Origin: the human T2T-CHM13v2.0 reference genome, Homo sapiens
Length of the DNA: 64,000 nt
Reading direction: 5' to 3' (one strand)
NCBI RefSeq assembly: GCF_009914755.1
Contig: NC_060935.1
Shown one piece after another: positions 38,187-51,620 of the stretch (positions within the stretch are counted from its first letter, which is position 1; each line of letters opens with the position of its first letter). Below the pieces are notes generated by a model. It was not told the origin of the DNA. It searched no databases and saw nothing but the letters and a program-made list of their open reading frames with translations. The position numbers and the translations under genes are program-made.

Positions 38187-38329
38187 ATTATAGTAACCTA
38201 TTTAATTATCTCAGCCACCTTACGAAGTAGGCACTAATTTAGACATTTCATAGATGAGAAAACTGAGGCACAGTAACATACCCAACGTAGCATGGTAAGG
38301 GATGGAGTTCATATAAAACCCAGACAGTT

Positions 38330-41300
38330 CAGCAGTATTCGCTGTCCTGCAGCCTCCGCTGCTGATAACCCAGGCAAACAGGGTCTGGAGTTGACCTCCA
38401 GCAAACTCCAACAGACTTGCAGCTGAGGGTCCTGACTGTTAGAAGGAAAACTAACAAACAGAAAGGACATCCACACCAAAACCCCATCTGTATGTCACCA
38501 TCATCGAGGACCAAAGGTAGATAAAACCACAAAGATGGGGAAAAAACAGAGCAGAAAAGCTGAAAATTATAAAAATCAGAGCGCTTCTCCCCCTCCAAAG
38601 GACCGCAGCTCCTCACCAGCAACGGAACAAAGCTGGACACAGAATGACTTTGATGAGTTGAGAGAAGAAGGCTTCAGAGAATCAGACTTCTCCGAGCTAA
38701 AGGAGGAAGTTCGAACCCATCGCAAAGAAGCTAAAAACCTTGAAAAAAGATTAGACAAATGGCTAACTAGAGTAACCAGTGTAGAGAAGTCCTTAAATGA
38801 CCTGATGGAGCTGAAAACCATGGCATGAGAACTACGTGACGAATGCACAAGCTTTAGTAGCTGATTCAATCAACTGGAAGAAAGGGTATCAGTGATTGAA
38901 GATCAAATGAATGAAATGAAGCGAGAAGAGAAGTTTAGAGAAAAAAGTAAAAAGAAACAAACACAACCTCCAAGAAATATGGGACTATGTGAAAAGACCA
39001 AATCTATGTCTGATTGGTGTACCTGAAAGTGATGGGGAGAATGGAACCAAGTTGGAAAACACTCTGCAGGATATTATCCAGGAGAACTTCCCCAACCTAG
39101 CAAGGCAGGCCAACATTCAAATTCAGGAAATACAGACAATGCCACAAAGATACTCCTCGAGAAGAGCAACTCCAAGACACATAATTGCCAGATTCACCAA
39201 AGTTGAAATGAAGGAAAAAATGTTAAGGGCAGCCAGAGAGAAAGGTCAGGTTATCCACAAAGTGAAGCCCATCAGACTAACAGTGGATTTCTCGGCAGAA
39301 ACTCCGCAAACCAGAAGAGAGTGGGGGCCAATATTCAACTTTCTTAAAGAAAAGAATTTTCAACCCAGAATTTCATATCCAGCCAAACTAAGCTTCATAA
39401 GTGAAGGAGAAATAAAATCCTTTAGAGACAAGCAAATGCTGAGAGATTTTGTCACCACCAGGCCTGCCCTACAAGAGCTCCTGAAGGAAGCACTAAACAT
39501 GGAAAGGAACAACCAGTACCAGCCACTGCAAAAACATGCCAAATTGTAAAGACCATCGATGCTAGGAAGAAACTGCATCAACTAATGAGTAAAATAACCA
39601 GCTAACATCATAATGACAGGATCAAATTCACACATAACAATATTAACCTTAAATGTAAATGGGCTAAATGCTCCAATTAAAAGACACAGTCTGGCAAATT
39701 GGATAAAGAGTCAAGACCCATCAGTGTGCTGTATTCAGGAGACCCATATCATGTGCGGAGACACACATAGGCTTAAAATAAAGGGATGGAGAAAGATCTA
39801 CCAAGCAAGTGGAAAACAAAAAAAAGGCAGGGGTTGCAATCCTAGTCTCTGATAAAACAGACTTTAAACCAACAAAGATGAAAAGAGACAAGGCCATTAC
39901 ATAATGGTAAAGGGATCAATTCAACAAGAATAGCTAACTATCCTAAATATATATGCACTCAATACAGGAGCACCCAGATTCATAAAGCAAGTCCTTAGGG
40001 ACCTACAAAGAGACTTAGACTCCCACACAATAATAATGGGAGACTTTAACACCCCACTGTCAACATTAGACAGATCAACGAGACAAAGTTAACAAGGATA
40101 TCCAGGAATTGAACTCAGCTCTGCACCAAGCGGACATAATAGACATCTACAGAACTCTCCACCCCAAATCAACAGAATATACATTCTTCTCAGCATCACA
40201 TCGCACTTATTCCAAAATTGACCACATACTTGGAAGTAAAGCACTCCTCAGCAAATGTAAAATAACAGAAATTATAACAAACTTGTCTCAGACCACAGTG
40301 CAATCAAACTAGAACTCAGGATTAAGAAACTCACTCAAAACCACTTGACTACATGGAAACTGAACAACCTGCTCCTGAATGACTACTGGGTACATAACAA
40401 AATGAAGGCAGAAATAAAGATGTTATTTGAAACCAATGAGAACAAAGACACAACATACCAGAATCTCTGGGACACATTTAAAGTAGTGTGTAGAGGGAAA
40501 TTTATAGCACTAAATGCCCACAAGAGAAAGCAGGAAAGATCTAAAATTGACGCCCTAACATCACAATTAAAAGAACTAGAGAAGCAAGAGAAAACAAATT
40601 CAAAAGCTAGCAGAAGGCAAGAAATAACTAAGATCAGAGCAGAATGGAAGGAAATAGAGATACAAAAAACCCTTCAAAAAAATCAATGAATCCAGGAGCT
40701 GGGTTTTTGAAAAGATCAACAAAATTGAAAGACCGCTAGCAAGACTAATAAGAAAAGAGAGAAGAATCAAATAGATGCAATAAAAAATGATAAAGGAGAT
40801 ATCGCCACCAATCCTACAGAAATACAAACTACCATCAGAGAATACTATAAACACCTCTATGCAAATAAACTAGAAAATCTAGAAGAAATGGATAAATTCC
40901 TGGACACATACACCCTCCCAAGACTAAACTAGGAAGAAGTTGAATCCCTGAATAGACCAATAACAGGCTCTGAAATTGAGGCAATAATTAATAGCCTACC
41001 AACCAAAAAAAAGCCCAGGGCCAGATGGATTCACAGCCGAATTCTACCAGAGGTACAAGCAGGAGCTGGTACCATTCCTTCTGAAACTATTCCAATCAAT
41101 AGAAAAAGAGGGAATCCTCCCTAACTCATTTTATGAGGCCAGGATCATCGTGATACCAAAGCCTGGCAGAGACACAAAAAAAGAGAATTTTAGACCAATA
41201 TCCCTGATCAACATCGATGCAAAAATCCTCAATAAAATACTGGCAAACCAAATCCAGCAGCACATCAAAAAGCTTATCCACCATAATCAAGTGGGCTTCA

Positions 41301-49324: not shown

Positions 49325-50696
49325 TTTTTTTTTTTTTTTAATACTTTAAGGGTACATGTGCACAACGTGCAGGTTTGTTACATATGTATACATGTGCTGT
49401 GTTGGTGTGCTGCACCCATTAACTCGTCATTTACATTAGGTATATCTCCTAATGCTAACCCTCCCCGCTTCCCCTACCCCACGACAGGCCCTGGTGTGTG
49501 ATGTTCCCCTTCCTGTGTCCAAGTGTTCTCATTGTTCAATTCCCACCTCTGAGTGAGAACACGCGGTGTTTGGTTTTTTGTCCTTGTGATAGTTTGCTGA
49601 GAATGATGGTTTCCAGCTTCATCCATATCCCAACAAAGGACTTGAACTCATCATTTTTTATGGCTGCATAGTATTCCATGGTGTATATGTGCCACATTTT
49701 CTTAATCCAGTCTATCATTAATGGACATTTGGGTTGGTTCCAAGTCTTTGCTATTGTGAATAGTGCCGCAATAAACATCCGTGTGCATGTGTCTTTATAG
49801 CAGCATGATTTATAATCCTTTGGGTATATACCCAGTAATGGGATGGCTGGGTCAAAAGGTATTTCTAGTTCTAGATCCCTGAGGAATCGCCACACTGTCT
49901 TCCACAACGGTTGAACTAGTTTACAGTCCCACCAACAGTGTAAAAGTGTTCCTGTTTCTCCACATCCTCTCCAGCACCTGTTGTTTCCTGACTTTTTAAT
50001 GATCGCAATTCTAACTGGTGTGAGATGGTATCTCATTGTGGTTTTGATGTGCATTTGTCTGATGGCCAGTGATGATGAGCATTTCTTCATGTGTCTTTTG
50101 GCTGCATAAATGTCTTCTTTTGAGAAGTGTCTGTTCATATCCTTTGCCCACTTGTTGATGGGGTTGTTTGTTTTTTTCTTGTAAATTTGTTTGAGTTCAT
50201 TGTAGATTCTGGATATTAGCCCTTTGTCAGATGAGTAGGTTGCAAAAATTTTCTCCCATTCTGTAGGTTGCCTGTTCACTGTGATGGTAGTTTCTTTTGC
50301 TGTGCAGAAGCTCTTTAGTTTTAATTAGATCCCATTTGTCAATTTTGGCTTTTGTTGCCATTGCTTTTGATGTTTTAGACATGAAGTCCTTGCCCATGCC
50401 TATGTCCTGAATGGTTTTCTTCTAGGGTTTTTATGGTTTTAGGTCTAACATTTAAGTCTTTAATCCATCTTGAATTAATTTTTGTATAAGGTGTGAGGAA
50501 CGGATCCAGTTTCAGCTTTCTACATATGGCTAGCCAGTTTTCCCAGCACCATTTATTAAATAGGGAATCCTTTCCCCATTTCTTGTTTTTGTCAGGTTTG
50601 TCAAAGATCAGATGGTTGTAGATGTGTGGTATTATTTCTGAGGGCTCTGTTGTGTTCCATTGGTCTCTATCTCTCTTTTGGTACCAGGACCAAGCT
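49325..50696 (-). mobile_element. 5'-truncated L1PA (copy B), inverted relative to copy A
   Basis: Poly-T 49325-49339, L1 3'UTR, ORF2 C-terminus ORF 49536-50279. Confidence 0.96.
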
Positions 50697-51620
50697 AAAA
50701 CACTTTTTAATTTCCCTTTTGATTCTTCTTTGACTTACAGATTATTGAGAAATGTGTTAGTTTCCAAACATTAGGATTTTTCAGATGCCTTTCTGTACTG
50801 ATCTCTATTTTAATTTCACTGTGGTCAGAAAACAAACTTTGTATGACTTGAATCTTTTAAAACGTATTGTGATTTGTTTTATGGCTCGGAATATGGTCTA
50901 CCTTGGTAAATGTCCCATTTGCACTTGTCAAAAATATGTATTCTGCTGTCTTTGGGTTAGGTGTTCTATAAATGTGAAGTAGGTCAAGTTAGTCGATAGA
51001 ATTTTTAAAAATCAGCATTCTTACTGATTTTCTGTCCACTTGTTCTGCTATTGAGAGAAGTGTTGAAATCTCGAACAAAGAATCCTATGGATTTGTTTAT
51101 TTCTCCTTGCAGTTCTTTTCAGTTTTTGCATAATATATTTTGAAGCTCTGTTACTAGGTACATACATGTTTAGAATTTTTATGTTCTTTTGATGAATTGA
51201 CCTCTTTATCGATTTTTAAATTTATTGTTATGAAATGACTTCCTTTATCATTATGAACTAACCTTTTTTATCCCTGGTAATATTCTTTGCTCTGAAATAT
51301 ACTTTGATACTAATATAGCCACTCCACTTTTCTTTTGGCTAGTGTTAACTTAGTATATCTTTTTTCATCCTTTTATTTTGAAGCTTTGTATCTTTATATT
51401 TAAAGTTGCCTTGCTTTTTTAGGAGAAAATCTAATCTAACAATATATGCCATTTAATTGGGATGTTTAGACTATTTACATTGCGTTTACTGATATAGTTA
51501 GGTTTAAGTCTTTTCTCTTGCATTTGTTTTCCTTTGTTTCATCTGTTCTTTGTTCTTCTTTTGTTCTTTTTATGCCTTCTTTTCTATTGGGTAACTTTGT
51601 TTGGTCTTTTTTGTTGGTTT
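50697..51620 (-). mobile_element. Old L1M element, 5' portion (continuation of the piece starting at 43635)
   Basis: Reverse complement gives L1 ORF2 sequence ending ...gggaaattaaaaagtgtttt, directly upstream in L1 of ...gaagtgaatgaaaat at 43647. Confidence 0.75.

What the first reader, a model, noticed from the sequence alone, without database searches (positions are those of the whole stretch)
38315..50708. L1-L1 recombination-mediated inversion inside JAM3 intron 1, revealed by swapped TSDs
Seen: L1 copy A (+) and copy B (-) form inverted arms of about 1.35 kb (42257-43610 and 49340-50696). TSD1 precedes A's 5' end (aaaacccagacagttcag, 38315-38332), but its partner follows B's polyA (reverse complement aaaaccagacagtccag, 49312-49328). 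TSD2 AAAAAGTGTTTT follows A's polyA (43635-43646), and its perfect partner precedes B's 5' end (50697-50708 on -, with a TT/AAAA endonuclease site). The host repeats are split the same way. The MIR cut at 38330 appears to continue at about 49280-49324 on the opposite strand. The old L1M ORF2 at 50709+ (-) joins directly to 43647+ (+). Inference: the ~5.7-kb unique segment 43.6-49.3 kb has been flipped by ectopic recombination between the two L1s, each of which is now a chimera. It may be lineage-specific or still polymorphic.
Basis: partly seen in the sequence, partly recalled or inferred. Interest (0 to 1): 0.9.

Follow-up and report, generated by a model that had tools for sequence, protein, structure and literature searches.

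The report
L1-mediated inversion in JAM3 intron 1
Two old L1 retrotransposons lying head-to-head in the first intron of JAM3 have recombined and flipped the roughly 6-8 kb between them, a real but well-known kind of rearrangement with no obvious effect on the gene.

Summary
Copy A (38333-43634, +) and copy B (49329-50696, -) share 1.35-kb inverted arms, 94.4% identical. Their target-site duplications are swapped. The 12-mer after A's tail occurs only twice in the window, and the second copy lies exactly before B's 5' end. The 18-mer before A's 5' end has one other match with up to 3 errors, exactly behind B's tail. Flanks of the same element do not match each other.

The host DNA agrees. The old L1M right of B (- strand) and the L1M right of A (+ strand) join base-for-base through the 12-mer. 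This shows against copy A's ORF2 and in 4 of 4 uninterrupted L1M copies fetched from the same genome. The claimed MIR continuity could not be tested.

Best reading: two independent L1PA insertions, then ectopic homologous recombination between them, inverting 5.7-8.4 kb. This is the retrotransposon recombination-mediated inversion of Lee et al. 2008, which uses the same swapped-duplication logic. The crossover point, the age, and the lineage or polymorphism status remain open. No outgroup or second haplotype was available, and supplements were closed. Ordinary in kind; modest interest.

The parts
38195..38332 (+). Old host repeat (MIR-like by recall) cut by the insertion of the long L1. Its last 18 nt are TSD1.
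   Evidence: Sequence read. The MIR identity rests on recall only. The genome search found one 30-nt core match elsewhere, and that copy ends before the break.
38315..38332 (+). TSD1, left copy, directly before the 5' end of L1 copy A.
38333..43634 (+). L1PA copy A, 5.3 kb, 5'-truncated in the 5' UTR. ORF1, endonuclease, reverse transcriptase and C-terminal region are all present but broken by stops and frameshifts. It ends in an A-rich tail.
   Evidence: ORF pieces in all three frames. Pfam hits: Transposase_22, Tnp_22_dsRBD, Exo_endo_phos, RVT_1. The last 172 codons match human L1 ORF2p residues 1104-1275 of 8sxt_A, E 5.9e-110.
42257..43616 (+). Arm of copy A that is homologous to copy B.
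42899..43225 (.). Candidate exchange zone (weak). It holds a 204-nt run with no A/B difference (42899-43103) and the strongest switch in which arm carries derived changes (43202/43225).
   Evidence: Run: P = 0.008 by simulation. The switch was reached by 289 of 20000 permutations when one third copy set polarity. With 58 copies and the whole arm, a single switch is not significant (932 of 3000).
43635..43646 (+). TSD2, copy behind A's tail.
43647..49311 (.). Spacer, now inverted relative to its flanks. It holds the 3' part of an old L1M (+ strand, to about 46682), Alu elements and unique DNA. No annotated exon lies in it.
   Evidence: tblastn with copy A peptides: 44208-46682 (+) is collinear with A 40756-43373. 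Alu matches. Gene table supplied with the finding.
43797..44010 (+). Old Alu-like insert inside the L1M, left out of the L1M reconstruction.
   Evidence: 73-80% identical to many Alus of the window. In 3 of 4 intact L1M copies the L1M sequence resumes across it.
49312..49329 (-). TSD1, right copy, directly behind B's A13 tail (read on the - strand). 16 of 18 identical to the left copy.
49329..50696 (-). L1PA copy B, 1.37 kb, a 5'-truncated 3' end with an A13 tail.
   Evidence: Its last 172 ORF2 codons are open.
50697..50708 (-). TSD2, copy directly before B's 5' end, preceded by AATT (a TT|AAAA nick site).
50709..51384 (-). 5' part of the same old L1M, on the opposite strand to its 3' part. 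It joins 43647 through TSD2 once the spacer is flipped back.

Best explanation
Two L1PA elements inserted independently, by ordinary target-primed reverse transcription, about 5.7 kb apart and in opposite orientation in JAM3 intron 1.

- The first was a 5.3-kb element in a MIR-like repeat, with TSD1.
- The second was a 1.37-kb 3' fragment in an old L1M, with TSD2.

Later, an ectopic homologous exchange within their shared 1.35-kb 3' region inverted everything between the two crossover points: the spacer plus the inner parts of the arms, 5.7-8.4 kb in all. This left each present-day L1 with the 5' flank of one original element and the 3' flank of the other.

Shown: the inverted arms, the swapped duplications, and the exact rejoining of the L1M.

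Inferred: the order of events, homologous recombination as the mechanism, and a rough L1 age of about 15 million years. That age combines about 2.5% copy-specific change with a recalled rate of about 0.17% per million years.

No effect on JAM3 is expected, because no exon or annotated regulatory element lies in the segment.
For: - Arms: 94.4% identity over 1359 columns in inverted orientation.
- TSD2: 12 of 12 identical, with only two occurrences in 128 kb of both strands, each at a junction.
- TSD1: 16 of 18, with no other match at up to 3 errors.
- Junction flanks: trans pairs score 12-13, cis pairs 4.
- Both elements have their own A-tail and an endonuclease-type nick site.
- L1M against copy A: rc(50829-50709) + TSD2 + 43647-43796 + 44011-44222 aligns collinearly with copy A ORF2 40288-40770 at 69% identity. 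The junction runs without a gap: A 40416, then 40417-40428 for TSD2, then 40429. z = 7 against 200 shuffles.
- L1M against intact copies: in 4 of 4 uninterrupted L1M copies fetched, the - strand piece ends at target base 370-401 and TSD2 plus 43647 onward continues at the next base, z 9-13. These 4 were chosen from 39 non-self matches.
- The same signature defines retrotransposon recombination-mediated inversion in PMC2603318 (passages and sections 6-9 read).
Against: - No un-inverted ortholog or allele was seen, so the ancestral state is inferred, not observed.
- Continuity at the other breakpoint (the MIR-like repeat) could not be tested.
- The arms do not show a clean single crossover. With 58 other L1 copies setting polarity, one switch is not significant (932 of 3000). 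The best fit is three blocks (59 of 3000), and total copy-specific change is equal in the two arms, 36 against 37 of 1356.
- Flipping the spacer in a misassembly would give the same signature. This could not be excluded with the tools, though the whole structure is only 8.4 kb.
Confidence: 0.88

Rival explanations
1. The end structure is the same, but it arose by replication-based template switching or break-induced repair between the inverted L1s rather than by a reciprocal crossover.
For: The arms carry local clusters of copy-specific changes: 5 B-derived substitutions in the first 45 nt of B, and 11 A-derived events in 42619-42831. They also hold a 204-nt run with no differences. All of this would fit error-prone or conversion-associated repair.
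Against: No loss, gain or filler sequence is seen at either junction. The L1M rejoins to the base and the arms are collinear over their full length. The final sequence cannot separate the two mechanisms.
Confidence: 0.07
2. Assembly artefact: the spacer between the two 1.35-kb inverted repeats was placed in the wrong orientation.
For: A flipped spacer between inverted repeats produces exactly swapped duplications. No read-level data were available.
Against: The arms differ at about 5.6% of positions. The whole structure spans 8.4 kb, shorter than the long reads used for telomere-to-telomere assemblies (general knowledge, not tested here).
Confidence: 0.02
3. A single L1 integration event, of the twin-priming or insertion-associated rearrangement type, created both L1 pieces and the inversion at once.
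For: L1 integration is known to produce 5' inversions and local rearrangements (general knowledge).
Against: There are two separate A-tails, each at its own nick site. The two pieces overlap over 1.35 kb of the same L1 coordinates instead of being complementary parts. They differ at 52 events. 5.7 kb of host DNA with its own old repeats lies between them.
Confidence: 0.02
4. There was no inversion. Two ordinary insertions have flank similarities by chance, and the L1M pieces on opposite strands reflect an old 5' inversion of the L1M itself.
For: None beyond the general frequency of 5'-inverted L1s.
Against: Chance expectation for the 12-mer is 0.04 per window, yet both copies sit at junctions. 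In a twin-primed L1 the inverted 5' piece abuts the 3' piece on its upstream side. Here it lies 7 kb downstream, and its break coincides to the base with the TSD2 boundaries.
Confidence: 0.01

Closest known systems
Retrotransposon recombination-mediated inversion, L1-RMI class (Lee, Han, Meyer, Kim, Batzer 2008, PMC2603318)
   Same: Two L1PA elements in opposite orientation span both breakpoints, both become chimeric, and their duplications no longer match within an element. The size falls inside the reported range of 166 bp to 81 kb (section 7). The location is intronic, as for 26 of their 49 loci in genic regions (section 9).
   Different: Their 49 loci were defined by a human-chimpanzee orientation difference. 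Here only one genome was seen, so the lineage is unknown. JAM3 and chr11 do not occur in the main text.
Human polymorphic inversions flanked by inverted transposable-element copies, such as HsInv0341 (L1PA3 repeats, 20.8 kb) and HsInv0347 (THE1C 1.6-kb repeats, 7.1 kb) in Aguado et al. 2014, PMC3961182
   Same: Kilobase-scale inverted copies of one element flank a spacer of about 7-20 kb. HsInv0347 is almost the same size class (table passages).
   Different: Those are shown to segregate in humans and are often recurrent. Nothing here shows polymorphism. The three chr11 inversions in that table lie at 0.30, 70.95 and 116.5 Mb (hg18), not in this region.
L1 twin-priming 5' inversion
   Same: L1 sequence is found on both strands at one locus.
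   Different: This locus has two tails, two pairs of duplications, overlapping L1 coordinates, and 5.7 kb of host DNA between the pieces.

Membership tests
Retrotransposon recombination-mediated inversion (RRMI) | Two elements of the same family, in opposite orientation, span the two breakpoints. | tested here: met
   1.35-kb inverted L1PA arms, 94.4% identical. L1 domains found in copy A.
Retrotransposon recombination-mediated inversion (RRMI) | Each element has non-matching duplications, and the duplications match across the two elements. | tested here: met
   TSD2 12 of 12 and TSD1 16 of 18 in trans. Cis pairs score 4 against 12-13 for trans pairs.
Retrotransposon recombination-mediated inversion (RRMI) | Host sequence becomes contiguous at both insertion sites when the segment is flipped back. 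| tested here: inconclusive
   Site 2 (L1M) is met to the base. Site 1 (the MIR-like repeat) could not be tested.
Retrotransposon recombination-mediated inversion (RRMI) | The un-inverted state is observed in an outgroup or another haplotype. | not testable with these tools
   Only this one genome is held. No primate or second human assembly was available.
Retrotransposon recombination-mediated inversion (RRMI) | A chimeric make-up of each element is visible in its sequence, with a switch point. | tested here: inconclusive
   Three-block pattern A3/B9, A16/B3, A5/B12, reached by 59 of 3000 permutations. A single switch was reached by 932 of 3000. Total loads are equal.
L1 twin-priming 5' inversion | One tail, one pair of duplications, and two abutting pieces that do not overlap in L1 coordinates. 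| tested here: not met
   Two tails, two pairs of duplications, a 1.35-kb overlap, and a 5.7-kb host spacer.
Catalogued human polymorphic inversion (InvFEST / HsInv) | Both orientations segregate in human populations. | not testable with these tools
   No haplotype data. The main texts of PMC3961182 and PMC6748972 do not list the locus.

The most novel reading that the evidence does not exclude
The inversion is young: specific to the human or African-ape lineage, or still segregating in humans. On this reading the anticorrelated three-block pattern of copy-specific changes along the two arms records more than one reciprocal exchange, meaning the segment has flipped repeatedly. Swapped duplications require an odd number of exchanges, so at least three.
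Probability: 0.15. Interest if true: 0.5.

Novelty: new member of a known kind. Interest (0 to 1): 0.3.

Why it matters
The finding shows that a balanced, kilobase-scale inversion can be read from a single haplotype by duplication bookkeeping, and that the old repeats it cut can confirm it. Biologically it is one more example of L1-driven structural change inside a gene, without a visible consequence. The L1 orientations relative to JAM3 are unchanged, and no exon or annotated regulatory element is moved. It would gain interest only if it proved polymorphic or recurrent, because pairs of inverted repeats of this size are under-called in inversion catalogues.

Tried and rejected
- **MIR continuity.** A BLAST of the rejoined site against the rest of the window gave 22 hits, all to an adjacent Alu tail and none spanning the junction. 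nhmmer found nothing. A genome search with the left half found the locus itself plus one 30-nt match, and that copy ends before the break. The right half found only itself.
- **Crossover mapping.** With one third L1 copy in the window (26240-27312, -) there was an apparent switch at 43202/43225, reached by 289 of 20000 permutations. The switch did not survive as a single change point when the whole arm was polarised with 58 copies. The idea of one old and one young element was dropped because total loads are equal and copy A's upstream 1.5 kb carries 2.4-2.8%.
- **Panel bias.** The A-arm and B-arm queries returned two disjoint sets of 29 copies, and they agree on polarity at nearly all sites.
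- **Literature.** JAM3 + inversion + LINE-1 gave 1 paper, a conference abstract book, seen in the listing only. JAM3 + inversion + inverted repeats gave 4 papers, none relevant by title. Two searches with coordinate prefixes, 13410 and 13397, were derived from recalled gene coordinates. They gave 4 and 5 papers. The one human-inversion paper from each listing was opened, and its number hit was unrelated.
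Full report
**What is there.** The window is T2T-CHM13 chr11:134106001-134170000. One search places 49329-50696 at C11:134155329-134156696.

Copy A (38333-43634, + strand) is a 5.3-kb L1.
- It starts inside the 5' UTR, directly after the 18-mer at 38315-38332.
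- Open stretches lie in all three frames.
- They carry the L1 ORF1 domains (Transposase_22, E 3.9e-57; Tnp_22_dsRBD), the endonuclease start and the reverse transcriptase.
- The last 172 codons align end to end with residues 1104-1275 of human L1 ORF2p (8sxt_A, E 5.9e-110). By my count on the printed alignment, 156 of 172 residues are identical.

Copy B (49329-50696, - strand) is a 1.37-kb 3' fragment that ends in thirteen A. Its homology to A begins directly after the 12-mer at 50697-50708.

The two copies form inverted arms. The repeat finder gives four collinear pairs at 95-97% complementarity. One BLAST alignment covers 42257-43596 against 50696-49349 at 94.4% over 1359 columns, with 46 mismatches and 7 gap openings.

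**The duplications are swapped.**
- AAAAAGTGTTTT follows A's tail (43635-43646) and, read on the - strand, precedes B's 5' end (50697-50708). These are its only two occurrences on either strand of the window. Dinucleotide-preserving shuffles give a mean of 0.04, and none of 100 reached two.
- The 18-mer before A's 5' end has, with up to three errors, one other match in the window: 49312-49329 on the - strand, directly behind B's tail, with two substitutions. Its 9-nt core is found only at those two places.
- Local alignment of the four 20-nt junction flanks scores 13 and 12 for the two trans pairs, and 4-5 for the other four pairings, the two cis pairs (each 4) included.
- Both target sites start with A-runs behind a T-rich dinucleotide: AATT|AAAAAG and CATAT|AAAACC. 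This fits the L1 endonuclease preference. The consensus itself is recalled, not tested.

**The host DNA confirms the flip.** tblastn with copy A's peptides against the window, with A and B masked, shows an old, diverged L1 in two pieces.
- 44208-46682 (+ strand) is collinear with A 40756-43373.
- 50985-50878 (- strand) matches A 40133-40240.
- Sensitive BLASTN extends the - strand piece collinearly from 51384 to 50798, matching A 39771-40319. The + strand piece 44033-44222 matches A 40583-40770.
- Bases 43797-44010 are an old Alu-like insert, 73-80% identical to many Alus of the window.

I joined four pieces by coordinates: rc(50829-50709), the 12-mer, 43647-43796 and 44011-44222. The 495-nt reconstruction aligns to A 40288-40770 at 69% identity (320 of 464 aligned columns).
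- The - strand piece ends at A 40416.
- The 12-mer occupies 40417-40428.
- 43647 starts at 40429.
- The score is 238, against 160 ± 11 for 200 shuffles of the unanchored middle, z = 7.

I then made an independent test with the element's own family. A genome search with rc(51100-50709) returned 39 non-self L1M-type matches at 70-77% identity. I chose four whose match reached the end of the query.

In 4 of 4, the - strand piece aligns up to target base 370-401, and the stretch 43635-43796 continues at the very next base, z 9.3-13.2. In 3 of 4, 44011-44222 then follows.

So rc(50709...) - TSD2 - 43647... was once one continuous sequence, the empty site of the short L1. The arrangement is not a 5'-inverted old L1. 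In that case the inverted piece would abut the 3' piece on its upstream side. Here it lies 7 kb downstream, with a break that coincides with the TSD2 boundaries.

**What could not be checked.** From memory of the MIR sequence it looks right, but no tool result supports it.
- The rejoined site found only Alu-tail matches in the window and nothing with nhmmer.
- Genome searches with each half found the locus itself plus one 30-nt core match, and that copy ends before the break.

No outgroup or second human haplotype is held, so the un-inverted state was not observed.

**Mechanism.** The simplest history is two independent insertions, each with its own tail, nick site and duplication. A homologous exchange within the shared 1.35 kb followed.

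For an exchange at A coordinate x, the partner point in B is 92945 - x. The inverted piece is therefore 5.7 kb if the exchange was at the tails and 8.4 kb if it was at B's 5' end. After reversal, each L1 regains a matching pair of duplications by construction.

Lee et al. 2008 (PMC2603318) call this retrotransposon recombination-mediated inversion. I read the outline, passages and sections 6-9.
- They use non-matching duplications of chimeric elements to identify the derived state.
- They report 49 such loci between human and chimpanzee, 21 of them L1-L1, ranging from 166 bp to 81 kb. 26 of the 49 lie in genic regions.

**Where was the exchange?** I tried to map it by asking which arm carries the derived base at each A/B difference.

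With one third L1 copy in the window (26240-27312, -) as reference there was a switch at 43202/43225.
- Left of it: A-private 19, B-private 4.
- Right of it: A-private 6, B-private 12.
- 289 of 20000 permutations reached this.

I then used 58 other copies from the same genome: the 29 best matches of each arm, with no copy in both lists. The two panels agree on polarity. Of 57 difference events, 48 could be polarised: 24 A-derived and 24 B-derived.
- A single change point is not significant (932 of 3000).
- The best description is three blocks: 42260-42592, A 3 / B 9; 42619-43202, A 16 / B 3; 43225-43611, A 5 / B 12. This was reached by 59 of 3000 permutations.

I also measured load against the 80% majority of 18 long copies.
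- Both arms carry the same total, A 36 and B 37 events in 1356 nt.
- Copy A's unambiguous upstream part carries 2.4-2.8%.
- The panel copies themselves carry 1.7-3.3%.

The arms also hold a 204-nt run without any difference, 42899-43103, P = 0.008.

The pattern may mean more than one reciprocal exchange. Swapped duplications need an odd number, so three. It may equally be local clusters of mutation. I leave it unresolved.

**Age.** A copy-specific load of about 2.5%, at a recalled L1 rate of about 0.17% per million years, puts both insertions at very roughly 15 million years. The inversion can be of any age since then.

**Known or not.**
- JAM3 with inversion and LINE-1 or inverted repeats gave no relevant paper.
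- The main text of PMC2603318 does not mention JAM3 or chr11.
- The chr11 inversions tabulated in PMC3961182 lie elsewhere.
- PMC6748972 has no chr11, 11q, L1PA or JAM3 in its main text.
- Two coordinate-prefix searches, built from recalled offsets, gave nothing.

**Verdict.** It is a further member of a well-described class, inside an intron, with no exon or annotated regulatory element moved and the L1 orientations relative to JAM3 unchanged. Interest is modest unless comparison with other genomes shows it to be recent, polymorphic or recurrent.

Noticed in passing
window 42899-43103 and the matching part of copy B: A 204-nt run without a single difference between arms that otherwise differ about every 26 nt (P = 0.008 by simulation). 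It may be a gene-conversion tract or the footprint of the exchange.
   Followed up: partly
window 50652-50696 (the first 45 nt of copy B, - strand): Five B-derived substitutions are crowded into the first 45 nt of the truncated L1, next to its 5' junction. At each of them 55-57 of the 58 other copies carry copy A's base.
   Followed up: partly
window 42619-42831: Copy A carries 11 derived events in 212 nt, three of them small deletions. This is far above its upstream load of about 2.5%.
   Followed up: partly
window 43797-44010: An old Alu-like insert (73-80% identical to Alus of the window) sits inside the L1M. In intact L1M copies the L1M sequence resumes across it with about 10-15 nt of overlap, possibly its own duplication.
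   Followed up: partly
window 26240-27312 (- strand): A third L1PA 3' fragment of similar age lies here, 80-93% identical at protein level to copy A's C-terminal region. It was used as a polarity reference.
   Followed up: partly
window 49539-50054 (- strand): The last 172 ORF2 codons of the truncated copy B are still open, with no stop. Copy A's ORF2 as a whole is broken into many frames, although its corresponding last 172 codons are also open.
   Followed up: no
G000 contig C24, around 23.94, 24.13, 25.54 and 25.75 Mb: Four matches to the L1M query have identical scores and alternate in strand. This looks like copies inside a palindromic or ampliconic region.
   Followed up: no
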